From an uncultured Desulfobacterales bacterium (GTDB taxonomy: Bacteria > Desulfobacterota > Desulfobacteria > Desulfobacterales > C00003060): 60,447 bases of DNA. The stretch lies in assembly GCA_964502635.1 (NCBI GenBank), contig CAZCXI010000001.1, positions 1 to 60,447 of the forward strand. Direction: 5' to 3'. A program made the translations under genes and the position numbers. Shown here piece after piece: positions 10,503 through 60,447 of this stretch. Position 1 is the first letter of the stretch; the number at the start of each line of letters is the position of its first letter. The notes beneath the pieces are model-generated. The model worked only from the letters and a program-made list of their open reading frames with translations. It searched no databases and was not told the DNA's origin.

Positions 10503-12968
10503 TTATGATGCTTCCTTGGCAAAAACCCACTTCTCAAGCATCTCAAATACAAGCTCCCTTTTGACCGGCTTTGGAATATAATCGTCCATACCTGCTTCAA
10601 GACACTTTTCCCTATCACCTTTCATGGCATGGGCGGTCATGGCAACGATTGGAACGGTTTCAAATCCTTTGTCCCTGATAGCTCTTGTTGCTTTCATGCC
10701 GTCCATGTGCGGCATTTGAACATCCATAAAGATCAGGTCAAACGCTTCAGGAGCCTTCGTGTATTTCTCGATGGCCTCCAGTCCATCATTGGCCACCTCT
10801 ACTTGATAGCCGGCCTTGGTCAACACCATCTTGGCCAGCTTCTGATTCACAGGGTTGTCTTCTGCCAAAAGAATGCGTGCGGAATGCTTGGCCTCTTCCC
10901 TCATAGAATGTTGAGTAACAATGGACACCGGTCTCTTTTCCTTGTCGTCATGCTTCTTTTCCCCCAGCAGCCTCTCCATCATGTCCAAGAGCTTTCGTCG
11001 ATGGACGGGCTTGGGCAAAAAGCCGTCAAAACCAGCCTCAAGACACTTTTTTGCATCACCCTCGGTAGATGATGAATAAGCCAGCAAAGGGATATAAGGA
11101 ATCTCTGACCGGGGATTGCGAATTTGCCGCGCCACGTCATAGCCGCCCATTTCAGGCATTTGAATGTCCAAAATGCAGACATCAAAGGGATCACCCCCCT
11201 CAAAGGCACCTTTCACAGTGGGTACGACTTCCTCCGCCCTTGTGAGCCCTTCTGTGTGCATGCCTGCTGATTTCATGATGTGTGTCAAAACAGTCAGGTT
11301 GTTCTTGTTATCATCAACAATGAGCACTTTCTTCCCGGCAAGTGAAACCGGGGCAAATCTCTTTACCTGTTTGCCTTCAGCCTTTTGCAGCCAGGCCGTA
11401 AAGCAAAATGTGCTTCCCTTGCCCGGCTCACTTTCTGCCCAGACATCACCGCTCATGATCTGGGCGATTCTCTTGCAAATGGGAAGTCCCAGACCGGTGC
11501 CGCCGTACTTCCTGGTGGTAGAAGTGTCGGCTTGTTGAAAGACCTCAAAGATGATGTTTACCTTATCTTTTGGGATGCCAATTCCAGTATCTCTAACGCT
11601 GACATGAAGTTTCACCCGTCCGTCGTGTTCCTCTGCCATGTCAACATAAAGCTCTATCTCACCGGCTTCGGTAAACTTGGCGGCATTGCCCATAAGGTTC
11701 AACAGCACCTGGCGAAACCGAGCCGGGTCTCCTCTAACATAAGCCGGAACTTCGTCGCCGATGCGGCACAGTATCTCAATGGGCTTGTCTTGCAGCCTTG
11801 GGCGAATCAGCTCGCAGACATCATGGGCTGTCACTTCCGGATCAAAGTCAACGGTTTCAACCTCCAACTGACCTGCTTCGATTTTGGAAAAATCAAGGAT
11901 ATCGTTTATCAAGGACAATAACCCATCACCGCTTCGTTTTATGGTCTCGGCATACTCCGTCTGCTCATCGTCCAACTTGGTATCCAGCAGCATCTCCGTA
12001 AAACCGAGCACTCCGTTCATGGGGGTGCGGATCTCGTGGCTCATGTTTGCAAGAAATTGGCTTTTTGCGGCGTTGGCCATCTCAGCTTGCATCGCCATGT
12101 TTTTGGCGTTAGCAACCGCCCGTTCAAGCTGGTTGTTTGCTTGGATCAACTCCCGGTTTGCAGCTTCAAGATCAGCCTTGGCCTTTTTCAGTGCCTCCGC
12201 AGCCGATTTTTGTTCGGTAATGTCGGCAGCGACTCCTTCGATGTAGCCTCTTTCTGGATAAATGCGCGCAGAGTAACGCACCCATATTGTTGAACCATCG
12301 TTACACGATAAACGGGCCTCGAAATTAGTGACCTCGCCGGTCTCCTGCATCTCAGCCAACATTCGCTCGCGGGTGCCTGGATCAAGATAGTGATCTTCGG
12401 TAACAAACTTGGCGATGCATTCTTCGCAATCTTTGTAAGCAAACATCTCGGCGAGTCGTCCATTGCACTCCAAAATTTTCCCATCACTGAGCCTCGTGCG
12501 AAACAATGCCACTTGGGCATTATTATAGATGCTTCGATATTTGTCCTCGGTCTCCTGCAGCGCCTGTTCCGCCCGTTTCCGTTCGATCGCATATCTTATG
12601 GCACGGGTTAGCAAGTTGCTATCTATCTGTCCCTTTACCAGGTAGTCCTGCGCGCCAGCCCGCATTGCCTGTGCTGCCAGAGTCTTGTCGTCAAGACCGG
12701 TCAGCAACACGATCGGCACGTCGCCCACCTGATCGTAGGTTCTGGCGAACGTGTCAAGCCCCTGACTATCGGGTAGTCCGAGGTCCAATAGAATTACATC
12801 AACGCCACCCTCAGCCAGACGCTTGAATCCAGTCGAAAGCCGATCGATACTCTCCAGAGTGAAGACAGACTCTTCCGTCTCAGCCAAAAATTCACGGATC
12901 AACCGGGCGTCTCCGGGGTTGTCTTCAAATAACAGGACGTTGATGGCTTTTTCACTCATCTTTGTCAA
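10503..12968 (-). CDS. Hybrid sensor histidine kinase (REC-PAS-HisKA-HATPase-REC-REC)
   Basis: N-terminal receiver (LLDLGLPD), a PAS region, H-box [15 protein letters not shown] boxes [17 protein letters not shown] and [11 protein letters not shown], and two C-terminal receivers ([18 protein letters not shown]). Confidence 0.9.
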
Positions 12969-13393
12969 TGTGTCGGTAATATGACGATGCTCAGCCAGAA
13001 GTCTTTGATGGCTTTCACAACCTTAATGAACTGGTCCAGGTCAATCGGTTTTCGGATGTAGCAGTTTGCGTGGAGGTTATAAGTCTTGACAATGTCCTCC
13101 TCAGCACCTGATACGGTCAGGATCACCACTGGAATGCGTCTCAACTCCTCGTTCGCCTTGACATCGGCTAGGACCTCACGACCGTCCTTTTTGGGCAGGT
13201 TCAGGTCGAGCAGGATGACGTCCGGACGAGGTGCATCCGAATACTCCCCCTCCCTGCGGAGGAAGGCCATCGCCTCCACGCCGTCTTGGACCCAGCTCAG
13301 GTTGTTATGCACCTTGGCATCCTTGAGAGCTTCTATCGCAAGGCGCGCATCGCCAGGGTTGTCCTCAACCAATAACATCTCGACAGGCTTCAT
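12965..13393 (-). CDS. Single-domain response regulator (receiver only)
   Basis: 142 aa with [21 protein letters not shown] and a C-terminal KP motif. 4-nt overlap with the downstream hybrid kinase. Confidence 0.9.
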
Positions 13394-13441
13394 TTTTTTC
13401 CTCCATGGTTTCTTATCAACATGATGTACACCAAGAATCCG

Positions 13442-14899
13442 CTATCCAGGATTCCCAAGTGATGATTCGCTTACCGGAATGGTAAAATAGAACTTCGAGC
13501 CTTTGCCGGACTCTGAGTCCACCCACATTCGACCGCCGTGGCGCTCAACAATCCTTTTGCAGACAGCGAGGCCGATCCCGGTGCCAGGATACTCGGTGTT
13601 TCCATGCAGGCGTTGAAAGATGGCAAAAATGCGTTCATAGTACTGGGAGTCAATTCCAATACCGTTGTCACTCACAGAGAAAACCCATGTACCGTTTTTT
13701 TGCTCCGACGAGACATGAATGCGTGGACGATCCTTGTTACGGAATTTAATGGCATTGGCCACCAAGTTCTGGATCAACTGGACCATCTGTGTCTTGTCTG
13801 TCATTACGGTCGGGAGGGTGTCGTTCGTGGTAATGGCGCCGCTTTCCTCGGTTGCGGCGCTCAGATTGAGAAGTGCCTCGGAAAGCACTTGGTTACAATC
13901 TGTCGTTTCAAAAGGTTTGCCTTTCGTGCCGACGCGCGAATACGAGAGCAGGTCATTTATAAGCGTGTGCATGCGATTTGCACCGTCAACGGCAAAGCCA
14001 ATAAACTCGTCCGCGTCCTCATCCAGCTTGCTCTTGTAGCGCCGTGCCAGCAGTTGCACGTAGCTGGAAACCATACGCAACGGCTCTTGAAGATCGTGCG
14101 AGGCTACATAGGCAAACTGTTCCAGCTCAGCATTGGAACGCGCCAATTCCCCCAGGGTTTCCTTCAATTCTTTCTCCGCCCGCTGGCGTTCGGTGATCTC
14201 TCTAGACACACTATCAATCATATGGTTGGTCACATTCTTCAGGGATTCCAATAGTTCCACTTCTGAAACCCCAGATATACGAGCAGCCAGATCACCTTTG
14301 GAGACCCTGTTCAACGTATCGAAGTGCTGAGCAAGCCCTATGGCAAAATCGTGAGACAGATGAACGATCTCCGCGAGGTTCTCGGCAGTCAGGTTGACCA
14401 TATGTTTCAGTTTGACAATCAACTCGAGTTCAGAGGCTTCGGGTATCCTTACTGAAGGATCTCCTGAAGAAATCCGTTTTAACGCCTCGAAAACCTCGGA
14501 CAAGCCCAGGGCCAACTCCATGCTGGTGTTTTGGGATTCCTCTTCGCTCTCCCGCAGGGCCTCCTGTGTCTTCGCCATCTTCTCACTCAGCATAGCCACT
14601 ACTATGGCGACTACTATGAGCATGAAAGTTCTTGAGTAATCATGTAACGTAGGCACCTGCACTCGCAGAAAAATGTGGCTCAAAATCAAAAGAGCTGCCA
14701 ACAATACGGCTACAAGCAAGCCTTTTTTTTTCCACCAAAGACATGCCAATATGCTTGGAATATAGTAAAAATGCGTAACAACAGCACCAGTTCCGAGTAC
14801 CGCATGAAAATAGTATGTCAAGAAGCAGGCGGTGGGCAGGAGGATGGCAATCAACGATAATTTGAATTTTTCGGATTGCAACCTCAGTACCGTTTTCAT
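13442..14899 (-). CDS. Membrane sensor histidine kinase
   Basis: N-terminal transmembrane segments, H-box SHDLQEPLRMV, NLVANAIKF, DNGIGID and GTGIGLAVCK. GGAGG RBS before ATG 14899, whereas the track start at 14950 lacks one. Confidence 0.85.
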   Translation of the reverse strand: MKTVLRLQSEKFKLSLIAILLPTACFLTYYFHAVLGTGAVVTHFYYIPSILACLWWKKKGLLVAVLLAALLILSHIFLRVQVPTLHDYSRTFMLIVVAIVVAMLSEKMAKTQEALRESEEESQNTSMELALGLSEVFEALKRISSGDPSVRIPEASELELIVKLKHMVNLTAENLAEIVHLSHDFAIGLAQHFDTLNRVSKGDLAARISGVSEVELLESLKNVTNHMIDSVSREITERQRAEKELKETLGELARSNAELEQFAYVASHDLQEPLRMVSSYVQLLARRYKSKLDEDADEFIGFAVDGANRMHTLINDLLSYSRVGTKGKPFETTDCNQVLSEALLNLSAATEESGAITTNDTLPTVMTDKTQMVQLIQNLVANAIKFRNKDRPRIHVSSEQKNGTWVFSVSDNGIGIDSQYYERIFAIFQRLHGNTEYPGTGIGLAVCKRIVERHGGRMWVDSESGKGSKFYFTIPVSESSLGNPG

Positions 14900-15106
14900 G
14901 ATTTTGCCTCCTACTAACTCTGAATCGAATCTTGAATCTCGTTGACCCATAAGCCAATAAAGATTCCTAGCATATACTTCGATCTAATGCGTCGAGCGTC
15001 AGTCCCACATACACTCTTCCCTGCACTTTTTGTCATGGATTCCGGCACGTCTAGAACAGCAATTGAGTTTGTAACGTTGTCACTCTCGGCTGCCTCAAGC
15101 CAGGTG

Positions 15107-15463
15107 TCAAAAAGAGAATGTAACAGTAGCATTTCTAATTTCGTTCAAGAATGTCGTTGCGCCTATTATCTCAACGCTTTCTCTGAGATCCTCTTTCTTT
15201 AGATCCTTTGTCTCCAGCGCCAGTGCGCATAAACATATCTTACCACCCAGGCGCACCACTCCATCGTATAATTCAACTAAATTGGGCATTCCTTTGACCT
15301 TGCTCATCTTCTCCATCTCTCCTTTTACCAGCGCCAGTGAACCACAGGGTGTGAAAAATAAAACCAAATCATCCCCGGACGCAACTGCTGAAGAACCAAT
15401 GATGAAGGCTGGGAATACATTATCTGGACAGGAACCATTCACTGTGATTGCTACTTTAGGCAT
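15107..15463 (-). CDS. DsrE/DsrF-like sulfur-relay family protein
   Basis: 118 aa with a DsrE-fold-like pattern (AFIIGSSAVASGDDLVLFFTPCG, KICLCALA). Neighbour of a TusA-like gene. Confidence 0.6.
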   Translation of the reverse strand: MPKVAITVNGSCPDNVFPAFIIGSSAVASGDDLVLFFTPCGSLALVKGEMEKMSKVKGMPNLVELYDGVVRLGGKICLCALALETKDLKKEDLRESVEIIGATTFLNEIRNATVTFSF

Positions 15464-15621
15464 TATTTAATTTCGCCGATTACAAACACATCACCACAAT
15501 CCGTTTATCTCCCTCGTCTACAATAATCGTGGAAACGAAGATGTCGAGTTATGCCCGTGGTTCGACTTCGGGCAATTCCTAATAGTTGGTTCTGACTCCG
15601 TTCCTGAACGACGGTAATACT

Positions 15622-15846
15622 CTAGAATTGTATCTGGATCCTCTTCTGGTTTGCCCCGTTATCATTTACGGAAAGGAAGACCTTGCCCAGCCGCTCGCAC
15701 CAGGTGCGCACATCTCTCTCGAAGGTGAGGCAGTCTCCCAATACCTCCAAAATGTCACCGTGCTTCATGTCCGGGGCCTTCACGGCGATCTTAAGGACCG
15801 GCTGGGGGCATTTCTGGCCGAGCGTGTCTAATACTTCTAACGTCAT
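15622..15846 (-). CDS. TusA-like sulfurtransferase
   Basis: CPQP active-site motif (LGQKCPQPVLK). GAGGAGAA RBS before ATG 15846. About 80 percent identical by eye to 58042..58266. Confidence 0.8.
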   Translation of the reverse strand: MTLEVLDTLGQKCPQPVLKIAVKAPDMKHGDILEVLGDCLTFERDVRTWCERLGKVFLSVNDNGANQKRIQIQF

Positions 15847-52653: not shown

Positions 52654-52899
52654 ATGGCGGCAAAGGACGGGCTCGTTCTTGAAGACTTCACGAGAGTGAC
52701 CGACTGCATTGACATGGCACTTGAGAGAGTCAACACCATATATCAGTCATCGGACCTGACCGAAGAACAAAAATCTGAGGTGGGCAGGCTCGGGCGCTTG
52801 CTCCACCAGACGGGTCATGACATCGGTCACTTTTTTATGACCTTGGAAACACTGCCCGATGAACTTAAAGAAAAATTGCATGAATATTACGGGCATTAG
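52654..52899 (+). CDS. Hypothetical small protein
   Basis: 81-aa ORF with a GGAGAAAGGAG RBS region. I recognise no family. Confidence 0.4.
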   Translation: MAAKDGLVLEDFTRVTDCIDMALERVNTIYQSSDLTEEQKSEVGRLGRLLHQTGHDIGHFFMTLETLPDELKEKLHEYYGH

Positions 52900-53061: not shown

Positions 53062-55026
53062 GTGGCAGAAAGAATAGGCATTTTTGTCTGTGAATGCGGT
53101 CCGAACATCAAGGAGGCCATGGACCTGGATGAAGTAGTGACATTCGTCCAAGGCCTTGAAAACGTGGTCCTGGCCAAAGCCTTTGGGCTGTTGTGTGCAG
53201 TGGAGGGTCAAGCGCTTATCGCAAAAGACATCAAAGAGCACGACCTCACGAGAATAGTCATTGCAGCCTGTTCGCCAAAGGAGCATGAAAAGACCTTTAA
53301 GCAATGCCTGGAGAAGGCCGGTCTCAATCCTTTTCTTTTGCAAATCGCCAATATTAGAGAGCAATGCGCCTGGGTGGTTGAAGACAAGGCCCTTGCTACG
53401 GACAAGGCCAAGGCGATCATCCGCGCAGCGGTCAGGCGAGTCGCTCATCATGAGCCCTTGGAGGTTAAAGAGATAGAATGCCAACCGCATGCTCTGGTGG
53501 TAGGGGCCGGCATAGCCGGGATCAGTGCCGCACTGACGCTGGCACAAAAACATAGGAAGGTCTATCTGGTTGAGAAGTTGCCGTGTATCGGGGGCAAAGT
53601 GGCCCGATATGAAGATGTGTTTCCCAGCCTGGAGTGCGCTTCTTGTATCCTTGATCCCATACTCGATGAGGTCTTACATAACGAGCATATCGAGATTCTC
53701 ACATTGACCGAGGTCCAGGAAGTATTGGGCTTTTATGGCAACTTCCTGGTCAAGGTGAACCAAAAGGCAAGGTTTGTGGATACTGGGACCTGTATCGGCT
53801 GCGGAGCGTGCCTTGAGGCTTGCCCGGTTAAGGTAAAAAACGAATATAATGAGGGCCTTGATGAACGAAAGGCCATCTACATCCCTTATGCAGGTGCCTT
53901 GCCGAATGTGGCGGCCATCGATAAGAAGCACTGTTTGCGCTGGCAGCAAGAAGCGTGCAGCGCCTGCAGGGAGGCCTGCCCTTTCGGGTCCATTACCTAT
54001 GAGGACACCGACCAGGTGCGCCAGTTGAGAGTGGGCGCCATCGTCCTGGCTACGGGTTTTGATCTCTTCGACCCGGCGAGGGCGCCCCAATACGGATACG
54101 GTAAGATTAAAGATGTGTATACCAGCCTTGAATTTGAAAGACTGGTCAATTCCACCGGGCCAACCGAGGGAAAGATCGTGTTACGAAACGGCCAGGTTCC
54201 TGAAAAGATTGCCCTGGTGCATTGTGTGGGCTCCAGGTCGAGCAAGTTTCATGAACATTGCTCTACGGTCTGCTGCATGTATCTGCTAAAGTTTGCTCAT
54301 CAGGTCAACAGCCAATTGCCTGGTGCTTCAATGACCGGGTTTTACTCCGACCTATGCCTCCCGGGGAAAAAAGCACAGGGCTTCTTTAACAAGATCTCGC
54401 AAGAGGGCCATATGGAATGGATGCACATGAAGGATCCGGATTCCATAGAGATCACGCAAGTGGACGAAAAGACACTCATCAGGTTTACGGATGTGACTGG
54501 AAGCCCCCGCGAAGTCACCGCAGATATGGTCGTCCTGGCGCCCGCCATGGAAGGCGCAAAAGATGCCGGGGCGATGGCTCAGATTTTCGATATATCTCAA
54601 GGCGGAGCAGAGGGGTTTTTTGCTGAAGAAAACAGCCAGGTGGCCCCTGTCTCAACAGCCATGGAGGGCATATTCATTGCGGGCTGTGCCCAAGGCCCAA
54701 AGGACATTCAAAGCTCGGTGGCCCAAGGGCAGGCCGCGGCAGGCAGGATCTTGTCACGCCTTGTCCCGGGAGAGAAGTTGGCCCTTGAGCCCGTAACCGC
54801 TGAAGTGGATGCAGACCTCTGCTGCGGGTGCAAACTATGCGTTGGCCTGTGTTCCTACAAGGCCATCACCTGCGATAACTTGAAAAACAATGTGGCAATT
54901 AACAAAGTGTTGTGCAGGGGTTGCGGCGTTTGCGCTGCCGCGTGTCCCAGCGGGGCCATTAAGGCTCACCACTTTACGGATACGGAAGTGTCCGAAGAAA
55001 TAAAGGGCCTGGTGCGACATGGTTGA
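53062..55026 (+). CDS. hdrA: Heterodisulfide reductase subunit A-like flavoprotein
   Basis: FAD motif LVVGAGIAGISAAL and ferredoxin motifs CIGCGACLEACP, CCGCKLCVGLC and CRGCGVCAAACP. AGGAG is 8 nt before GTG 53062. Confidence 0.85.
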   Translation: MAERIGIFVCECGPNIKEAMDLDEVVTFVQGLENVVLAKAFGLLCAVEGQALIAKDIKEHDLTRIVIAACSPKEHEKTFKQCLEKAGLNPFLLQIANIREQCAWVVEDKALATDKAKAIIRAAVRRVAHHEPLEVKEIECQPHALVVGAGIAGISAALTLAQKHRKVYLVEKLPCIGGKVARYEDVFPSLECASCILDPILDEVLHNEHIEILTLTEVQEVLGFYGNFLVKVNQKARFVDTGTCIGCGACLEACPVKVKNEYNEGLDERKAIYIPYAGALPNVAAIDKKHCLRWQQEACSACREACPFGSITYEDTDQVRQLRVGAIVLATGFDLFDPARAPQYGYGKIKDVYTSLEFERLVNSTGPTEGKIVLRNGQVPEKIALVHCVGSRSSKFHEHCSTVCCMYLLKFAHQVNSQLPGASMTGFYSDLCLPGKKAQGFFNKISQEGHMEWMHMKDPDSIEITQVDEKTLIRFTDVTGSPREVTADMVVLAPAMEGAKDAGAMAQIFDISQGGAEGFFAEENSQVAPVSTAMEGIFIAGCAQGPKDIQSSVAQGQAAAGRILSRLVPGEKLALEPVTAEVDADLCCGCKLCVGLCSYKAITCDNLKNNVAINKVLCRGCGVCAAACPSGAIKAHHFTDTEVSEEIKGLVRHG

Positions 55027-55438
55027 TGCAGTGACAACCAGTTTTGAACCCAAGATTATTGGTTTTCTCTGTAACTGGTGTTCTTACGAAGGGGCCGATG
55101 CTGCGGGAAGGGCTCGCAAAGTCTATCCTGCGAACCTGAGAGTCGTTAGAGTGATGTGCAGCGGCAGGGTCGATCCTCAGTTCATCCTTGAGGCCTTCAA
55201 AGAGGGCGCTGACGGGGTGATGATCCTGGGCTGCCATCCGGGTGACTGCCACTACAAAGAAGGTAATCTCCAAACGCTTAAGAGATACCATGTATTAAAG
55301 AGGGTGCTGAGCAGATTTGGCATAGAAGAAGACAGATTAAGGCTTGATTGGATCTCGGCCGGCGAGGGGGACAAGTTCGTCCAGGTCGTTTCTGAAATGA
55401 CTGAAAGAATGAGGCAACTCGGTCCCTTGTGTCGCTGA
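55019..55438 (+). CDS. mvhD: MvhD-like hydrogenase iron-sulfur subunit
   Basis: GFLCNWCSY, VMCSGRV and LGCHPGDCHY motifs. 8-nt overlap with hdrA. Confidence 0.9.
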   Translation: MVDAVTTSFEPKIIGFLCNWCSYEGADAAGRARKVYPANLRVVRVMCSGRVDPQFILEAFKEGADGVMILGCHPGDCHYKEGNLQTLKRYHVLKRVLSRFGIEEDRLRLDWISAGEGDKFVQVVSEMTERMRQLGPLCR

Positions 55439-55529
55439 TGCCGGACGGGCGACATCGAGATGACCCTCCGGGTGCCGTGTTGACCCTGTTGGCAATGTCT
55501 CCTTAAACAATGGTTGTAGGTTCCTAAAC

Positions 55530-56507
55530 ATGACGGAAAAACCCAAGATTGCGCTGTATTGGTGTTCAAGCTGCGGCGGCTGCGAGGAATCCGTCGTTGA
55601 CTTGGCAGAGGATCTCTTAACGGTTGCTGCGGCTGTCGATATTGTATTTTGGCCGGTAGCCCTGGATTTCAAGTATAAGGATGTTGTCGCCCTCAAGGAT
55701 GGCGAGATCACCGCAACGCTGATCAATGGCGCCATCAGGACGGATGAACAAGAGCATATGGCCAAAATCCTGAGAAAAAAATCCAGATTGCTCTTCGCCC
55801 ACGGAAGCTGTGCACACCTTGGCGGGGTGGTGGGGCTGGCCAATTTTTACGAACGTGAAGACTTGCTGAACCGTTTATACCAAGAGGTTCCCACGATAAA
55901 CAATCCTCAGGCAATCTTACCACAACCCGAAACCATAGAATCCGGCAAAAACCTACAACTGCCGGATTTCCATGATACCGTCAAGGCGTTGGACCAGGTC
56001 GTAGAGGTGGATTACACGATCCCGGGTTGCCCCCCGACGCCAGAGCTCATCAAAGAGGCCGTGATGATGGTCCTGGAGGACCGGCTCCCGCCGAGGGGGA
56101 GCGTATTGGCGGAAAAAAAGGCACTTTGCGATACATGCCCTCGAAGAGACAGCAAGCCCGAACCATTGCGGATAAAGGAGTTCAAACGGGTCTATGAGGC
56201 GGAGTGGGACCCAACAAAGTGTTTCTTGGCTGAGGGCATTATCTGCCTTGGCCCTGCCACCAGGGGAGGGTGCAATGCACGGTGTATCAATGCCAACATG
56301 CCCTGTCGAGGTTGCTTTGGGCCCACGGACAACGTGAGGGACCAGGGCGCAAAATCTTCCTCCTTCGTCGCGTCCATCATTGATGTCACAGACAAAGAAG
56401 CGTTGGAGAAGATTGTCGATTCCATTCCTGATCCTGGCGGACTGTTCTACCGGTACGGCCTGGCCTCATCCATATTGAAGCGAAAGATGACCAGGGACGG
56501 CTCATGA
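55530..56507 (+). CDS. mvhG: Group 3c-type [NiFe]-hydrogenase small subunit (MvhG-like)
   Basis: No signal peptide. YWCSSCGGCEES, HGSCAHLGG, IPGCPP and CRGCFGP motifs. Confidence 0.8.
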   Translation: MTEKPKIALYWCSSCGGCEESVVDLAEDLLTVAAAVDIVFWPVALDFKYKDVVALKDGEITATLINGAIRTDEQEHMAKILRKKSRLLFAHGSCAHLGGVVGLANFYEREDLLNRLYQEVPTINNPQAILPQPETIESGKNLQLPDFHDTVKALDQVVEVDYTIPGCPPTPELIKEAVMMVLEDRLPPRGSVLAEKKALCDTCPRRDSKPEPLRIKEFKRVYEAEWDPTKCFLAEGIICLGPATRGGCNARCINANMPCRGCFGPTDNVRDQGAKSSSFVASIIDVTDKEALEKIVDSIPDPGGLFYRYGLASSILKRKMTRDGS

Positions 56508-58039
56508 GCAAACGAATCACCATTGACCCCATCACCAGATTGGAAGGACACGGCAAGATTGAAATCTTTCTTGACGACCAGAAGGACGTGGAGCGTGTCT
56601 ATTTTCAAGTCCCGGAACTGAGAGGGTTTGAGAAGTTTTGTGAAGGCAGGGCGGCAGAGGAGATGCCTACCCTTACACAAAAGATTTGCGGGGTGTGTCC
56701 CACAGCCCACCATACGGCGTCGAGCAAGGCGCTGGATGATCTGTTCGGCGTTGAGCCGCCGCCCGCGGCAAAAAAGCTCAGAGAGCTCATGTATAACGCC
56801 TTCATGTTTGAAGACCACCTGTTGCATTTCTTTTTTCTGGGAGGCCCTGATTTGATTGTCGGTCCCACAGCGCCAAGGGCGAAAAGGAATATTCTTGGCG
56901 TCGTAGACAAGGTGGGTATCGAGATGGGAAAAAAGGTCGTTGATATCCGGAAACGGGTCCGGGGCGTCAATGCATTAATTGGCGGCAGCGCCCTTTATCC
57001 TGTTTGCGGGCTGCCAGGCGGCGTTTCAAAGGCCATGACCGAGGAGGAGAGGACCCAAGTCCGGGTCGTGACAAGAGATGCAGTGGAATTTGCCAAACTG
57101 ACGTTGGATCTCTTTGATGATATCGTGCTCAATCATAAGGGGTTGGCCAACTGGCTCACCAGTGATGTCTTCTGTCACAAAACGTACTACATGGGCCTGG
57201 TTGATGATCATAACAGGGTCAACTTTTATGACGGGAAAATCCGGGTGGTTGATCCCAACGGCGAGGAGTTTGTCAAATTCGAGGCAAGAGACTATCTGGA
57301 GCACTTAGAGGAACGGGTTGAACCGTGGAGTTATCAGAAAATCCTCTATTTGAAGAACGTCGGCTGGAAGGGGTTCATCGATGGACCGGATAGCGGTGTT
57401 TATAGGGTAGCCCCCCTTGCCCGCCTCAACGCCTCTGAAGGCATGGCCACCCCCTTGGCCCAGGCCGAGTATGAAAATATGTTTCATACCCTGGCTGAAA
57501 AACCTGTTCATAATACCTTGGCCTACCATTGGGCCAGGCTTATCGAGGTCTTGTACGCGGCAGAAAGAATGGACGAGCTTGCCGCAGATGAGGAGCTCAC
57601 CAGTCCCCGGGTACGCAATCTTCCACATCAAACCCCCAAAGAAGGCGTTGGTGTCTGCGAAGCGCCGAGGGGAACGCTTTTTCATCACTACAAGACCGAC
57701 GAGAAGGCCATTGTAGAGAGGTTGAACCTCTTGGTGGCCACGCAGAACAATGCCGCAGCCATTTGCATGTCGATTGACAAGGCGGCTCGAGCCGCCATCA
57801 AAGGCGGCGCTGTCTCCGATGGCAAATTGAATGTGGTAGAGATGGCCTTCCGAGCCTATGATCCCTGCCTCGCCTGTGCCACGCACTGCCTCCCTGGCAA
57901 GAGGCCAACGGTGGTCATGTCCATGATAGGAGTAGGAATCGACAACGACGTTAAAGATCCCCGCAGTCCAGATACATCGGGACGGGGAACGCACTCGCTT
58001 TTCGGGTTGAACCGTAAGATGTTACGCAAGGAGAGGTGA
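56504..58039 (+). CDS. mvhA: Group 3c-type [NiFe]-hydrogenase large subunit (MvhA-like)
   Basis: RLEGHG, KICGVCPTAHH and C-terminal DPCLACATH motifs, followed by about 50 further residues. ATGA overlap with mvhG. Confidence 0.85.
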   Translation: MSKRITIDPITRLEGHGKIEIFLDDQKDVERVYFQVPELRGFEKFCEGRAAEEMPTLTQKICGVCPTAHHTASSKALDDLFGVEPPPAAKKLRELMYNAFMFEDHLLHFFFLGGPDLIVGPTAPRAKRNILGVVDKVGIEMGKKVVDIRKRVRGVNALIGGSALYPVCGLPGGVSKAMTEEERTQVRVVTRDAVEFAKLTLDLFDDIVLNHKGLANWLTSDVFCHKTYYMGLVDDHNRVNFYDGKIRVVDPNGEEFVKFEARDYLEHLEERVEPWSYQKILYLKNVGWKGFIDGPDSGVYRVAPLARLNASEGMATPLAQAEYENMFHTLAEKPVHNTLAYHWARLIEVLYAAERMDELAADEELTSPRVRNLPHQTPKEGVGVCEAPRGTLFHHYKTDEKAIVERLNLLVATQNNAAAICMSIDKAARAAIKGGAVSDGKLNVVEMAFRAYDPCLACATHCLPGKRPTVVMSMIGVGIDNDVKDPRSPDTSGRGTHSLFGLNRKMLRKER

Positions 58040-58041
58040 CG

Positions 58042-58266
58042 ATGGCAGTGGAAATTCTAGACACCCTGGGTCAGAAGTGCCCTCAGCCGGTCCTAAAGAT
58101 CGCCGTGAAGGCTCCGGACATGGAACCCGGTGATATCTTGGAGGTATTGGGAGACTGCCCGACCTTTGAGAAAGATGTGCGCACCTGGTGCCAGCGGCTG
58201 GGCAAGGTCTTTCTTTCCATAAAGGAAGAAGGGAGAAACAGGAAACGGATCCAGATACAGTTTTGA
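58042..58266 (+). CDS. TusA-like sulfurtransferase, last gene of the hdrA-mvh operon
   Basis: LGQKCPQPVLK motif. AAGGAGAGG RBS. Starts 2 nt after the mvhA stop. Paralog of 15622..15846. Confidence 0.8.
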   Translation: MAVEILDTLGQKCPQPVLKIAVKAPDMEPGDILEVLGDCPTFEKDVRTWCQRLGKVFLSIKEEGRNRKRIQIQF

Positions 58267-58535
58267 CGGCTTCGTAAGAAATCCCTTTCCGGCGTTGTGC
58301 TTCATTTTCCGTCTGCCTGTGCGTTGCACGCAGAGAGGCCATCGCGATGCACCATGGCAGTGCCCATCCATAAATGGCATCTTTGGGTCCGATGCGGCGT
58401 TCTCCGCGGGTTTGCGCCTGCGGCTTGTGAAAAGGCCGTCCTCAACGTAGCGCTGCTACGCCTGCGGCGTAAACCCTTGTGCGGCCTTGCCTCGGGCCAA
58501 AGTCTACCATTTCTGAATGAACACCTTGCAGTGCT

Positions 58536-58560
58536 CAACCGAGCCATGTTGGCTCGGTTG
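58536..58560. other. Perfect 11-bp stem, 3-nt loop hairpin
   Basis: caaccgagcca tgt tggctcggttg. There is no U-tract, so a terminator role is uncertain. Confidence 0.4.
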
Positions 58561-58742
58561 GCCGCATTTGTGGATGGACACTGGATCTTATTGCTAGAGA
58601 TTCTGGCGCCTTGCATATGGTCCGCCGCGGATGGATTAACTTGCCGTCGTCGATTTTGTGAACAAGCAACGTTTCAATGAACCGCTCAAAGGCGTCCCTG
58701 TTCGGGCAACAGCCCGTCCATGATTGAAGGGAAATTTCAGAG

Positions 58743-60447
58743 GTGAAAGAAAAGGTGAACTGCTGGGAATTCTTTCAATGTAACGAGAAGGAATGCCCGG
58801 CTTTCAAGTCCAAGGAGCTGAATTGTTGGCTCGTTCCAGGGACCCGTTGTCGCAATGAGATCCAGGGAAAGCTTTTGGAAAAAATCGAGATGTGCCTTGA
58901 ATGCGAGCCCTTTAAAGCGAACATCGATGTCTGTTTCATGGCGGAGACCTTGAAGGTGATCAATGAACAACTCTCAGCGTACAGACATCTGGTTGACGAG
59001 CGAGACAGGGAGTTGGAGGGCACCAGCATGGAGCTGGCCCTGGGCTTGTCCGAGGTCTTTGAGGCGTTAAGAAAGATCGCTTCAGGCGATCCTGAAGTCA
59101 GGATACCTGAAACCTCAGGACTCGAGTTGATGACGAAACTAAAACACATGGTCAACCTGACTGCCGAAGAACTGGGAGAAATCGTTGGTCTTTCTCATGA
59201 GTTCGCCATCGGCCTGGCAGAACACTTCGATGTATTGCATCGAGTCTCACAAGGTGAGCTGAGGGCCCGCATATCCGGCTCTTCACCGGTCGACTTGTTG
59301 GAATCCCTAAGAAAAGTAACCAACGAGATGATTCAGAGTGTATCCACGGAAATCAGCGACCGCAAGCAGGTGGAGAAGGCGCTGCGGGAGACGGAGGAGC
59401 GGTTCCGACAAACGGCTGCGCTATCTCCCTTTCCAATCTCTATCATCGACGTAGACGGACGATATGTGTACTTGAACAAGAAGTTTAGTGAAGTTTTTGG
59501 CTACACACTGGAGGATATCCCCTTCGGAAGGGATTGGTTTCACAAGGCCTACCCAGATGCAGAATACCGGCGAAAAGTCATATCTGCCTGGAAGGGGGAC
59601 CTGGATAAGTTCGGGCCACTGGAGGCCAGGGTTCGAGAGTGCAGGGTGGTCTGCAAGGACGGAACAGTGCGGGATATCGTCTTTAGGCCCGTATCCATGG
59701 ACAACGGAACACAGTTTGTCACCTACGAGGACCTCACCGAGCGCAAGCAGGCGGGGGAGGCGTTGCGGGCGTCCGAAGAGAAATACCGCACTCTCTTCGA
59801 ACTGGCGGCGAGTTCCATTGCGCTAATTGATGGAGAGACGGGTGCGTTTGTGGAATTTAACAAAAGGACGCATGAAAACCTTGGGTTCACCCAGGAGGAG
59901 TTCGCGAAGCTCAAGATAGCCGACTTTGAGGTGATGGAAAGTCCTGAGCAAGTCCTGAGCCACTTCAAGAAAATCACCAAGGAGGGGGCTGATCGATTTG
60001 AGACGAAACATAGGACAAAGAGTGGAGAGATACGAGATGTCCACGTGAGTGCCAGGACCATTACCATCCATGGGAAGGACTACGTTCAGGCCATATGGCG
60101 GGACATTACCGATTTCAAGCGGACAGAGGCAAAGCTGGAGAAAATGTTCACGCAGATCAAGAAGGGCCACGACAATCACTTGTCGATTCTGAATATGCTG
60201 CGCCTGGGAATCGCAACGGTAGACCAGGACGGTCGTGTCACATTTCTCAATCAGACCGCCCAGCAGCTCATCGGAAGGAATCTGACGGCCGTCTCCGGAA
60301 GGCATTGGCAAGCGTTGTTTCATTTCAATGCCCACGACAAGGCCAGGCTCGAGGATATGTTGAGGCATACCCGTGCAGGAGGCAGGAAGCTGCAAGCCCA
60401 GGTCGAATTCCAGCCGGGCCGGCGTTATTGGATGGACATCGAAGTGC
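58743..60447 (+). CDS. Multi-PAS signal-transduction protein with a Cys-rich N-terminal module (3' end outside the window)
   Basis: My own translation from GTG 58743 is open to the window end (568 codons): VKEKVNCWEFFQCNEKECPAFKSKELNCWLVPGTRCRNE...CLEC, then a linker module shared with the 13442 kinase, then at least three PAS-like repeats. The gene is missing from the ORF track because there is no stop codon in the window. Confidence 0.8.
   Translation, partial: MKEKVNCWEFFQCNEKECPAFKSKELNCWLVPGTRCRNEIQGKLLEKIEMCLECEPFKANIDVCFMAETLKVINEQLSAYRHLVDERDRELEGTSMELALGLSEVFEALRKIASGDPEVRIPETSGLELMTKLKHMVNLTAEELGEIVGLSHEFAIGLAEHFDVLHRVSQGELRARISGSSPVDLLESLRKVTNEMIQSVSTEISDRKQVEKALRETEERFRQTAALSPFPISIIDVDGRYVYLNKKFSEVFGYTLEDIPFGRDWFHKAYPDAEYRRKVISAWKGDLDKFGPLEARVRECRVVCKDGTVRDIVFRPVSMDNGTQFVTYEDLTERKQAGEALRASEEKYRTLFELAASSIALIDGETGAFVEFNKRTHENLGFTQEEFAKLKIADFEVMESPEQVLSHFKKITKEGADRFETKHRTKSGEIRDVHVSARTITIHGKDYVQAIWRDITDFKRTEAKLEKMFTQIKKGHDNHLSILNMLRLGIATVDQDGRVTFLNQTAQQLIGRNLTAVSGRHWQALFHFNAHDKARLEDMLRHTRAGGRKLQAQVEFQPGRRYWMDIEV

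What the first reader, a model, noticed from the sequence alone, without database searches (positions are those of the whole stretch)
53062..58266. hdrA-mvhD-mvhG-mvhA operon ends with a TusA-like gene and has no hdrBC
- The four genes of a cytoplasmic flavin-based electron-bifurcating-type module are tightly packed: an 8-nt overlap, a 91-nt gap and a 4-nt overlap.
- They are followed 2 nt later by a CPQP-motif TusA-like carrier with its own strong RBS.
- No HdrB/HdrC-type catalytic subunit is in the window, so the oxidant reduced by HdrA is undefined.
- A TusA-bound persulfide or polysulfide (or a selenium analogue) is an attractive candidate substrate, by analogy with DsrC- and TusA-linked Hdr-like systems.
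- MvhA also carries an unusually long tail of about 50 residues after DPCLACATH.
Basis: inference. Interest (0 to 1): 0.6.

Follow-up and report, generated by a model that had tools for sequence, protein, structure and literature searches.

The report
Hydrogenase-HdrA operon with dedicated TusA partner
A hydrogen-splitting enzyme and its electron-splitting flavoprotein HdrA are encoded here without the usual HdrBC subunits, followed by a special three-cysteine sulfur-carrier protein (TusA) that recurs in such operons and in front of sensor kinases, which suggests an undescribed link between hydrogen oxidation, protein-bound sulfur or thiols, and signalling.

Summary
hdrA, mvhD, mvhG, mvhA and a TusA-family gene lie at the stated coordinates with the stated spacings, and no CCG-type (HdrB) gene is on the contig.

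Two details need correcting.
- The 50-residue MvhA tail, and therefore the 2-nt mvhA-tusA spacing, come from a 1-nt deletion at about 57916 relative to the nearest relative. The unshifted frame gives a normal 22-residue tail.
- The 476-nt gap to the sensor gene holds a 226-bp MITE.

The tusA linkage is not unique.
- About 20 loci carry this TusA subfamily at the end of hdrA-mvhDGA or mvhGA-hdrA-mvhD operons. These fall in at least four separate MvhA lineages, and one is the cultured Desulfosarcina widdelii.
- None of these loci has hdrBC nearby, whereas about 40 tusA-less Mvh loci carry hdrCB in cis.

The same subfamily (Cys13 in CPQP, Cys39 in GDCP, Cys50) has four copies in this genome. It usually sits directly upstream of PAS hybrid histidine kinases, with or without the hydrogenase.

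I read TusA as a thiol/persulfide relay tied to both HdrBC-less Mvh-HdrA and signalling. The claim that it is the bifurcation oxidant is plausible but untested. I found no paper describing the arrangement.

The parts
53062..55026 (+). hdrA: full-length HdrA flavoprotein (654 aa) with an N-terminal Fe-S domain, a FAD domain, an inserted ferredoxin domain and a C-terminal ferredoxin domain
   Evidence: Pfam. The best NCBIfam match is HdrA2 at 672 bits, below its equivalog cut-off. It matches solved methanogen HdrA over the whole length (8RVU 555 bits, 5ODC 548 bits). All cluster cysteines are conserved. AGGAG lies 7 nt upstream of GTG 53062.
55019..55438 (+). mvhD: [2Fe-2S] delta subunit that links the hydrogenase to HdrA; overlaps hdrA by 8 nt
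   Evidence: PF02662 FlpD, 180 bits. VhuD-like at 130.7 bits.
55530..56507 (+). mvhG: [NiFe]-hydrogenase small subunit
   Evidence: PF01058. VhuG-like at 228 bits.
56504..58039 (+). mvhA: group 3c-type [NiFe]-hydrogenase large subunit. Both Ni-binding motifs are intact. The C-terminal extension is frameshifted by a 1-nt deletion at about 57916; the ancestral stop is TAA 57952-57954.
   Evidence: PF00374. VhuA-like at 371 bits. Homologues are named F420-non-reducing hydrogenase large subunit. DNA alignment with L007. Tail comparison.
58042..58266 (+). tusA-like gene (74 aa). A distinct three-cysteine subfamily: C13 in CPQP, C39 in GDCPTFE, C50 in WC.
   Evidence: PF01206, 62.8 bits. Below the NCBIfam TusA and YedF equivalog cut-offs. 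AF2 model pLDDT 87 with beta-alpha-beta-alpha-beta-beta order; TM 0.85 to E. coli TusA 3LVJ. Subfamily alignment. Conserved context.
58358..58583 (.). 226-bp MITE-like repeat with 19-nt terminal inverted repeats, inserted in the tusA-sensor spacer
   Evidence: Inverted repeat I1. At least 20 copies at 80-92% identity on other contigs.
58743..60447 (+). 5' part of a cytoplasmic sensor gene with an N-terminal Cys-rich two-CW domain and three PAS domains, cut by the contig end. Full-length orthologues are PAS-HisKA-HATPase-REC hybrid kinases.
   Evidence: Pfam PAS. NF045718 two_CW_domain at 36.3 bits against a cut-off of 35. Orthologues downstream of tusA in L009, L029, L031, L044, L081 and L095-098.

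Best explanation
This is an intact bacterial HdrA-MvhD-MvhG-MvhA module: a cytoplasmic group 3c-type [NiFe] hydrogenase wired to a bifurcation-type HdrA flavoprotein. It is of the kind that has no HdrBC of its own. Its conserved fifth gene encodes a dedicated member of a distinct three-cysteine TusA/YedF-like subfamily.

That small protein is the hub of the system. It is encoded at the end of HdrBC-less Mvh/HdrA operons, directly in front of cytoplasmic PAS hybrid histidine kinases (often with a two-CW Cys-rich input domain), or both, as here.

Most likely mechanism (inferred, not shown):
1. TusA carries a sulfane sulfur, or forms a di- or trisulfide, on Cys13 and Cys39 at its active-site corner.
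2. H2-derived electrons leaving Mvh-HdrA set its reduced/oxidised or sulfurated state, either directly or through an unidentified partner.
3. The neighbouring kinase reads that state.

TusA would then couple the acceptor side of the hydrogenase to signal transduction.

Shown: gene identities, intact cofactor ligands, the conserved linkages, the absence of hdrBC in cis, and the TusA fold and cysteine pattern.
Inferred: every chemical and signalling step.
For: Identity: Pfam, NCBIfam and PDB matches, and all HdrA cluster cysteines are kept.

Linkage to Mvh/HdrA:
- tusA follows mvhA in 9 of 76 scorable genome-contig loci and in G098, G169, G312 and G360.
- tusA follows mvhD in rearranged mvhGA-hdrA-mvhD-tusA operons in G255, G135 and G068, with gaps of 2-37 nt. 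In G093 it overlaps the mvhD ORF call by 35 nt.
- On an MvhA tree the tusA-linked rows form one 13-row clade (support 100) plus three separate lineages. Starred branches force at least 4 changes.

Exclusivity:
- 0 of 17 tusA loci have hdrB within the fetched flanks (up to 10 kb each side; several contigs are shorter), against 40 of 89 others.
- Phylum Mvh loci without this TusA have hdrCBA or HdrL-like/MvhD-fusion partners and no TusA of any kind.
- G068 lacks canonical hdrBC genome-wide.

Linkage to kinases:
- A sensor-like gene lies 9-243 nt downstream in 22 of 32 TusA-subfamily loci. Some of these loci are near-duplicates.
- These include loci with no hydrogenase: own contig C52, L099, L101, L102 and L135-137.
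- Other signalling partners also occur: STAS proteins in L100, and a DsrE-like gene plus kinase and response regulator at window 10503-15846.

Other points:
- TusA is more conserved (72-89% identity) than MvhA (60-76%) or HdrA (50-70%) across the same loci.
- Cys39 replaces Asp45 of E. coli TusA and lies at the N-cap of helix 2, as Cys13 lies at the N-cap of helix 1.
- The DsrE-family neighbour of one paralogue argues for sulfane-sulfur chemistry.
Against: - There is no biochemical or expression evidence of any kind. Co-transcription is only suggested by spacing and the lack of a terminator.
- HdrA has no known site for reducing a disulfide or persulfide. In solved complexes its C-terminal ferredoxin domain feeds HdrC and HdrB.
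- CCG-domain proteins exist in trans in every tusA genome examined. This genome has hdrCB and dsrK elsewhere.
- HdrA/MvhD pairs without HdrB are common in this genome, with at least 7 pairs and one canonical HdrB. Lack of hdrBC is therefore not special in itself.
- Corrected for phylogeny there are only about 4-5 independent tusA/hdrBC contrasts, so the exclusivity is only weakly significant.
- Five of the tusA genomes lack a detectable two-CW domain, and some tusA loci have no kinase (L010, L011, L103, L105, L106). The three-way coupling is therefore not obligatory.
- The Cys13-Cys39 distance was not measured, because no model coordinates were available.
Confidence: 0.42

Rival explanations
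1. Regulatory module only. tusA belongs functionally to the downstream kinase. The pair forms a TusA-plus-PAS/two-CW co-sensor of cytoplasmic sulfane sulfur or thiol redox state, and it is parked next to the hydrogenase operon that it helps regulate. Mvh-HdrA passes its high-potential electrons to a partner encoded elsewhere, such as an HdrBC-like, HdrD/DsrK-like or DsrC-linked protein, and never touches TusA.
For: - tusA-kinase pairs occur without any hydrogenase: C52, L099, L101, L102, L132 and L135-137.
- tusA is often closer to the kinase than to mvhA (L029, L044, L081 and L098).
- In L131 a hycI gene separates mvhA from tusA.
- CCG proteins are present in trans in all tusA genomes examined.
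- Methanogens keep hdrA, hdrBC and mvh at separate loci (established knowledge).
Against: - In the mvhGA-hdrA-mvhD-tusA operons of G135, G068 and G255, tusA lies 2-37 nt after mvhD with no kinase nearby. G135 and G068 have no detectable two-CW domain anywhere.
- L010 and L011 end the operon with tusA and have no sensor.
- Linkage to Mvh/HdrA arose or persisted in at least 4 MvhA lineages.
- tusA is never found at hdrBC-containing Mvh loci.
Confidence: 0.25
2. One reading: a metabolic oxidant. TusA-bound persulfide, polysulfide or trisulfide is the high-potential electron acceptor of H2-driven flavin-based bifurcation by Mvh-HdrA. It would take the place of CoM-S-S-CoB and HdrBC, with ferredoxin as the low-potential acceptor. 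The kinase would be incidental.
For: - tusA and hdrBC are mutually exclusive at Mvh/HdrA loci.
- G068 has the operon but no canonical hdrBC.
- TusA has a two-cysteine active-site corner like YedF, and one paralogue has a DsrE neighbour.
- TusA feeds Hdr-like complexes in sulfur oxidisers (PMC6067878).
- Sulfane sulfur/H2S couples are positive enough relative to H2 to act as the exergonic branch (general thermodynamics, from knowledge).
Against: - No catalytic site for S-S cleavage is present. HdrA is canonical, and only two subgroup-enriched, non-invariant cysteines were found (C140, C432).
- A 74-residue carrier present in four copies, mostly beside kinases, looks more like a signalling or relay protein than a bulk respiratory substrate.
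- No sulfurtransferase that would reload TusA is encoded in the operon.
Confidence: 0.18
3. Supply or maturation role. TusA delivers sulfur, or selenium given its YedF-like Cys pair and the Sec-using host, for building cofactors or selenoproteins of the Hdr/Mvh enzymes. Alternatively the adjacency is a neutral hitch-hiker.
For: - The Cys39 position is shared with E. coli YedF, which is linked to selenium metabolism.
- The genome uses selenocysteine and has a yedE-tusA-selD operon on the same contig (earlier notes e1-3387675 and e1-3387674, not tested here).
- Relatives have hdrA and mvhA genes that appear split, possibly at Sec codons.
Against: - The window's HdrA, MvhD and MvhA are all cysteine forms and still keep tusA.
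- tusA-kinase pairs without any redox enzyme do not fit a maturation role.
- No known [NiFe] or Fe-S maturation pathway uses TusA (established knowledge).
- Conservation across lineages and very high sequence conservation argue against hitch-hiking.
Confidence: 0.08

Closest known systems
MvhADG-HdrABC electron-bifurcating complex of hydrogenotrophic methanogens (PDB 5ODC, 8RVU)
   Same: HdrA aligns end to end with the solved subunit, and all Fe-S ligands and the FAD fold are kept. The MvhD, MvhG and MvhA homologues are intact and the Ni-binding motifs are present.
   Different: There is no HdrB or HdrC in the operon, or within the fetched flanks of any tusA-type relative. A TusA-like gene and usually a sensor kinase follow instead. 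The host is bacterial and Dsr-bearing, so CoM-S-S-CoB is not expected.
sHdr (sulfur-oxidising Hdr-like) system with TusA, DsrE3 and LbpA, as in Hyphomicrobium denitrificans (PMC6067878)
   Same: A TusA-family carrier is genetically tied to an Hdr-type flavoprotein system. One paralogue here sits next to a DsrE-family gene.
   Different: sHdr has HdrB1/B2 and HdrC1/C2 catalytic subunits and lipoate-binding proteins, and no hydrogenase. Here hdrB and hdrC are absent from the locus, and HdrA is of the MvhD-coupled bifurcating type.
TusA, YedF and YeeD(TsuB) sulfur-carrier proteins (PDB 3LVJ, 1JE3, 8J4C)
   Same: The fold matches (TM 0.85, rmsd 1.4 A to TusA). The CPxP cysteine sits before helix 1. 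The helix-2 cysteine is equivalent to TusA Cys56. The DCP cysteine is shared with YedF.
   Different: It scores below the NCBIfam equivalog cut-offs for TusA, YedF and TsuB. It has its own signature, KCPQPVLKI...GDCPTFEKDVR.WC...RIQIQF. It occurs in multiple copies, and its context is Hdr/Mvh operons and kinases rather than tRNA thiolation or YeeE/YedE transporters.
Regulatory (H2-sensing) [NiFe] hydrogenases HoxBC-HoxJ and HupUV-HupT (from knowledge, not tested here)
   Same: A cytoplasmic [NiFe] hydrogenase is encoded with a soluble PAS histidine kinase. Some large subunits of the tusA clade lack the C-terminal extension, as regulatory hydrogenases do.
   Different: Those are group 2b enzymes that bind the kinase directly, with no HdrA, MvhD or TusA. 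Here the hydrogenase is Mvh-type with a full HdrA.
HdrA/MvhD modules without HdrBC in sulfate reducers (Qmo, HdrL and Flx-type clusters; Strittmatter 2009, Pereira 2011 and Appel 2021, as cited in PMC5947623, PMC12142623 and PMC13490349)
   Same: The host genome has at least 7 HdrA-like/MvhD pairs and one canonical HdrB. HdrBC-less HdrA as such is known.
   Different: None of the papers I could read mentions a TusA gene as a conserved member of hdrA-mvhDGA operons.

Membership tests
Mvh-type (group 3c) [NiFe] hydrogenase with HdrA | The large subunit has the N-terminal RxCGxCxxxH and C-terminal DPCxxCxxH nickel-binding motifs | tested here: met
   QKICGVCPTAHH and DPCLACATH are in the ORF. VhuA-like at 371 bits, below the equivalog cut-off of 800.
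Mvh-type (group 3c) [NiFe] hydrogenase with HdrA | MvhD (FlpD) and MvhG subunits are encoded with the large subunit | tested here: met
   PF02662 at 180 bits and PF01058 at 76.8 bits.
Mvh-type (group 3c) [NiFe] hydrogenase with HdrA | Full-length HdrA with the FAD domain and all Fe-S cluster ligands | tested here: met
   Aligned over residues 4-649 to 8RVU HdrA. Cluster cysteine columns are 92-100% conserved in both groups.
MvhADG-HdrABC complex in the strict sense | HdrB (two CCG domains) and HdrC are part of the unit | tested here: not met
   There is no CCG domain on the contig. 0 of 17 tusA-type loci have hdrB within the fetched flanks (up to 10 kb each side). hdrCB elsewhere in the genome sit with their own HdrL-like flavoproteins.
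MvhADG-HdrABC complex in the strict sense | H2-dependent coupled reduction of ferredoxin and a disulfide (flavin-based bifurcation) | not testable with these tools
   This needs enzyme assays.
TusA family (PF01206) | Pfam domain above the gathering score, with the CPxP cysteine | tested here: met
   62.8 bits against 28.6. C13-P-Q-P is invariant in the subfamily.
TusA family (PF01206) | Two-layer alpha/beta sandwich fold of TusA | tested here: met
   AF2 pLDDT 87, order beta-alpha-beta-alpha-beta-beta. Foldseek TM 0.85 and rmsd 1.4 A to 3LVJ chain C.
TusA, YedF or TsuB orthologue groups (NCBIfam equivalogs) | Score above the curated equivalog cut-off | tested here: not met
   TusA 36.7 against 78, YedF 33.4 against 79, TsuB 16 against 147.5. 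It is a separate subfamily.
TusA family (PF01206) | Persulfide formation and transfer on the CPxP cysteine | not testable with these tools
   This needs biochemistry.
Two-CW domain sensor kinases (NF045718) | N-terminal two-CW Cys-rich domain above the cut-off, followed by signalling domains | tested here: met
   36.3 bits against a cut-off of 35, at residues 6-59, followed by three PAS domains. Full-length orthologues have HisKA, HATPase and REC domains.
sHdr sulfur-oxidation system | hdrC1B1A-hyp-hdrC2B2 with lbpA and dsrE3/tusA | tested here: not met
   No HdrB or HdrC is in the locus. lbpA was not searched.

The most novel reading that the evidence does not exclude
The whole set (Mvh hydrogenase, bifurcation-type HdrA, three-cysteine TusA and a PAS/two-CW hybrid kinase) is a dedicated cytoplasmic sensor rather than an energy-metabolism enzyme. 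H2 oxidation by Mvh, balanced against sulfane sulfur or another oxidant, would set the dithiol, persulfide or trisulfide state of TusA through HdrA. TusA would be the diffusible output that switches kinases. In other genomes it would switch STAS, chemoreceptor or c-di-GMP modules. This would be a new class of sensory hydrogenase with a protein-thiol second messenger.
Probability: 0.17. Interest if true: 0.85.

Novelty: new variant of a known kind. Interest (0 to 1): 0.62.

Why it matters
Mvh/Hdr is the textbook flavin-based electron-bifurcating hydrogenase, but its partner in non-methanogens has long been unclear. HdrA-Mvh modules without HdrBC are widespread in sulfate reducers and other anaerobes.

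A conserved, dedicated small thiol protein that appears only where HdrBC is missing is a concrete, testable candidate for the missing partner. Its second, equally conserved tie to sensor kinases suggests a route by which cells could convert H2 availability or sulfane-sulfur load into gene regulation.

The arrangement occurs in a cultured, genome-complete organism, Desulfosarcina widdelii PP31 (locus L044). The idea can therefore be tested with ordinary genetics, proteomics and enzymology.

Tried and rejected
- **Read-level check of the mvhA frameshift:** Whether the 1-nt deletion is real or an assembly error stays open.
- **Structured RNA or terminator between mvhA and tusA:** folds are no better than shuffles (z = 0.46, -1.61, 0.08 and 0.07). 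No terminator-like site lies between mvhA, tusA and the sensor. Rfam gave only a spurious sub-threshold snoRNA hit.
- **Special catalytic feature in tusA-linked HdrA:** I found only 11 group-specific substitutions and two non-invariant extra cysteines, C140 and C432. This is not convincing.
- **Upstream ORF 52654-52899 (81 aa):** it has no family hit and is not conserved in relatives. I rejected it as part of the unit.
- **TusA subfamily always travelling with the two-CW domain:** rejected. Two-CW occurs in 139 of 401 phylum genomes, against 11 besides this one for the subfamily. G135, G068, G066, G093 and G166 have the TusA but no two-CW hit.
- **hdrBC just beyond the sensor:** this cannot be read here because the contig ends. 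It is not seen in relatives with long flanks.
- **Literature:** six full-text searches and several papers gave no description of tusA in hdrA-mvhDGA operons. Pereira 2011 and Appel 2021 are not held, so prior mention there cannot be excluded.
- **Cys13-Cys39 distance:** no model coordinates are exposed, so I could only infer proximity from the secondary-structure positions.

Full report
**What is in the sequence**

The window is a complete 60,447-bp contig of a 3.15-Mb, 188-contig genome. Five genes lie on the + strand:
- hdrA, 53062-55026
- mvhD, 55019-55438
- mvhG, 55530-56507
- mvhA, 56504-58039
- a 74-codon TusA-family gene, 58042-58266, preceded by AAGGAGAGG

HdrA aligns over its whole length to solved methanogen HdrA (8RVU 555 bits, 5ODC 548 bits) and keeps every cluster cysteine. 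MvhA has both nickel-binding motifs. No CCG (HdrB) domain is on the contig.

**The long MvhA tail is a frameshift**

Among 99 homologues the extension after DPCxxCxxH has a median of 26 residues and a maximum of 49. Four homologues have none. The window's tail starts like the consensus (CLPGKRPTVV) and then diverges.

A DNA alignment with the nearest relative (L007, MvhA 88% identical) shows a single missing C at about 57916. The window reads GGT-CATG and L007 reads GGTCCATG. The other frame reads HVHDRSRNRQRR and stops at TAA 57952-54, which fits the family pattern xVYDKEKKLI.

The tail is the part that the maturation endopeptidase removes (established knowledge), and some clade members lack it altogether. 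The shift is therefore probably harmless.

**Is the tusA linkage conserved?**

Yes.
- Of 80 genome loci encoding MvhA relatives, 76 had enough downstream DNA to score. Nine of these have this tusA immediately downstream of hdrA-mvhDGA: L008-L011, L022, L029, L031, L044 (Desulfosarcina widdelii PP31) and L081.
- L007 has a cut-off tusA start.
- In an even sample of 401 genomes of the host's phylum, TusA relatives at 51% identity or more occur in 11 genomes besides this one.
- The fetched loci show three arrangements. G098, G169, G360 and G312 have hdrA-mvhDGA-tusA-kinase. G255, G135 and G068 have mvhGA-hdrA-mvhD-tusA, with tusA 2-37 nt after mvhD. G093 has hdrA-mvhD-tusA-STAS-STAS-...-mvhGA.
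- On a maximum-likelihood MvhA tree, the tusA-linked rows form one 13-row clade (support 100) plus three separate lineages nested among hdrBC-linked ones. Starred branches force at least four changes.

**tusA or hdrBC, never both**

None of 17 tusA-type loci has hdrB within the fetched flanks (up to 10 kb on each side; several contigs are shorter). Forty of the other 89 loci do, typically as hdrCBA-mvhDGA. Twenty further Mvh loci from the same phylum that lack this TusA carry hdrCBA, MvhD-fusion or HdrL-like partners, and no TusA of any kind.

Partners in trans:
- This genome has hdrC-hdrB next to an HdrL-like flavoprotein and metVF (C48), an HdrL-mvhD-GltD-like-hdrC/B-like set (C10), dsrMK (C28) and one dsrC. 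Each of these sits with its own flavoprotein.
- It has at least 7 HdrA-like/MvhD pairs but only one canonical HdrB.
- G068 is 100% complete in 10 contigs. Its only CCG proteins look GlcF/LutA-like or HdrD/DsrK-like, so it has the tusA operon without any canonical hdrBC.

Caveats: only about 4-5 phylogenetically independent contrasts exist. Methanogens keep hdrA and hdrBC unlinked. HdrBC-less HdrA modules are already known in sulfate reducers.

This genome holds four copies of the subfamility at 81-100% identity:
- the copy in the operon studied here
- C52:1612-1836, followed 119 nt later by a second two-CW/PAS sensor, with topA upstream and no hydrogenase
- window 15622-15846 (minus strand), followed by a DsrE-family gene, a histidine kinase, a response regulator and a hybrid kinase
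- a solitary copy on C3

The gene after tusA in the window carries a two-CW domain (NF045718, 36.3 bits against a cut-off of 35) and three PAS domains. Its full-length orthologues downstream of tusA in L044, L081 and L029 are PAS-HisKA-HATPase-REC hybrid kinases.

Over 32 TusA-subfamily loci, some of them near-duplicates:
- a sensor-like gene follows at 9-243 nt in 22 of them
- mvhA or mvhD precedes in 19

Metagenome contigs show tusA-kinase pairs with no hydrogenase (L135-137). One operon has hycI between mvhA and tusA (L131).

The 476-nt tusA-sensor spacer in the window is inflated by a 226-bp MITE with 19-nt inverted ends and at least 20 genomic copies.

The two-CW domain itself is far more widespread, at 139 of 401 genomes. 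It is absent from G135, G068, G066, G093 and G166, which nevertheless have the TusA. The Hdr/Mvh tie therefore does not depend on it.

**The TusA subfamily**

- It has the TusA fold: AF2 pLDDT 87, TM 0.85 and rmsd 1.4 A to E. coli TusA.
- It falls below the TusA, YedF and TsuB equivalog cut-offs.
- Its signature is KCPQPVLKI...GDCPTFEKDVR.WC...RIQIQF.
- Cys13 is the CPxP cysteine. Cys50 matches TusA Cys56.
- Cys39 replaces Asp45 of E. coli TusA and is shared with E. coli YedF.
- Cys13 and Cys39 both sit just before a helix, at the ends of the neighbouring strands beta1 and beta2. From the fold I infer, without having measured it, that they are close enough to hold a di- or trisulfide, a selenotrisulfide or a metal.
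- The protein is more conserved (72-89% identity) than MvhA (60-76%) or HdrA (50-70%) across the same loci. This fits a protein with several binding partners.

**Interpretation**

The safest statement is that tusA is a genuine, conserved component of HdrBC-less Mvh/HdrA operons and, independently, of cytoplasmic kinase modules.

My preferred mechanism (0.42) is a relay. Electrons from H2 leaving HdrA set the thiol or sulfane state of TusA, and kinases read that state.

Rivals:
- tusA serves only the kinase, and HdrA uses a trans partner (0.25).
This fits the exclusivity with hdrBC but lacks a catalytic site, and it fits poorly with a multi-copy, kinase-associated carrier.
- A supply, maturation or neutral role (0.08).

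No RNA structure, terminator or Rfam family separates the genes. Co-transcription is plausible but not shown.

**Novelty**

Full-text searches found no paper that links tusA to hdrA-mvhDGA. Two key reviews are not held.

Earlier AI notes of this scan, made on other genomes, report the same hydrogenase-HdrA-TusA and TusA-two-CW-kinase pairings. I had already found both links from my own analyses before I read those notes. They are leads, not independent evidence.

I class this as a new variant of a known kind.

Noticed in passing
window 58358-58583: A 226-bp MITE-like element with 19-nt terminal inverted repeats (CAGTGCCCATCCATAAATG / CATTTGTGGATGGACACTG). At least 20 copies at 80-92% identity lie on other contigs, in both orientations. 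Shorter repeated pieces flank it at 58267-58355 and 58655-58722.
   Followed up: partly
window 60154-60447 (contig end); G000 C52:1-1492; C3:1-664: Contig C1 ends, and contigs C52 and C3 begin, inside paralogous two-CW/PAS sensor genes (74-78% DNA identity). The assembly breaks at this paralogue family. At least five two-CW domains are in the genome.
   Followed up: partly
window 10503-15846 (minus strand): A second signalling cluster is headed by a paralogue of the same TusA subfamily (81% identical). It is followed by a DsrE-family gene (15107-15463), a membrane histidine kinase, a response regulator and a triple-REC hybrid kinase.
   Followed up: partly
L010, L011, L044, L081 (mvhA 3' ends): Four MvhA proteins of the tusA clade, including that of Desulfosarcina widdelii, end exactly at the His of DPCxxCxxH. 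They have no C-terminal extension for an endopeptidase to remove. Regulatory and some energy-converting hydrogenases also have this trait.
   Followed up: no
G068 (L106, L138, L139): This complete-looking genome has mvhGA-hdrA-mvhD-tusA but no canonical hdrBC anywhere. Its three CCG-domain proteins look GlcF/LutA-like or HdrD/DsrK-like.
   Followed up: partly
L131:544-6154 (GCA_003194485.1): hdrA and mvhA are each split into two gene calls, and mvhD is not called between them. This probably reflects in-frame selenocysteine codons. A hycI protease gene lies between mvhA and tusA.
   Followed up: no
L100:5486-8071 (G093): Two STAS-domain genes and two further genes that I did not scan against Pfam lie between hdrA-mvhD-tusA and mvhGA. 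From their sequences I judged the latter two to be RsbT-like kinases, which would make this a partner-switching module.
   Followed up: partly
G000 contigs C37, C48, C10, C20, C17, C19: The genome has at least seven HdrA-like/MvhD pairs and only one canonical HdrB. One pair is an hdrC-hdrB-HdrL-like-mvhD-metV-metF cluster on C48.
   Followed up: partly
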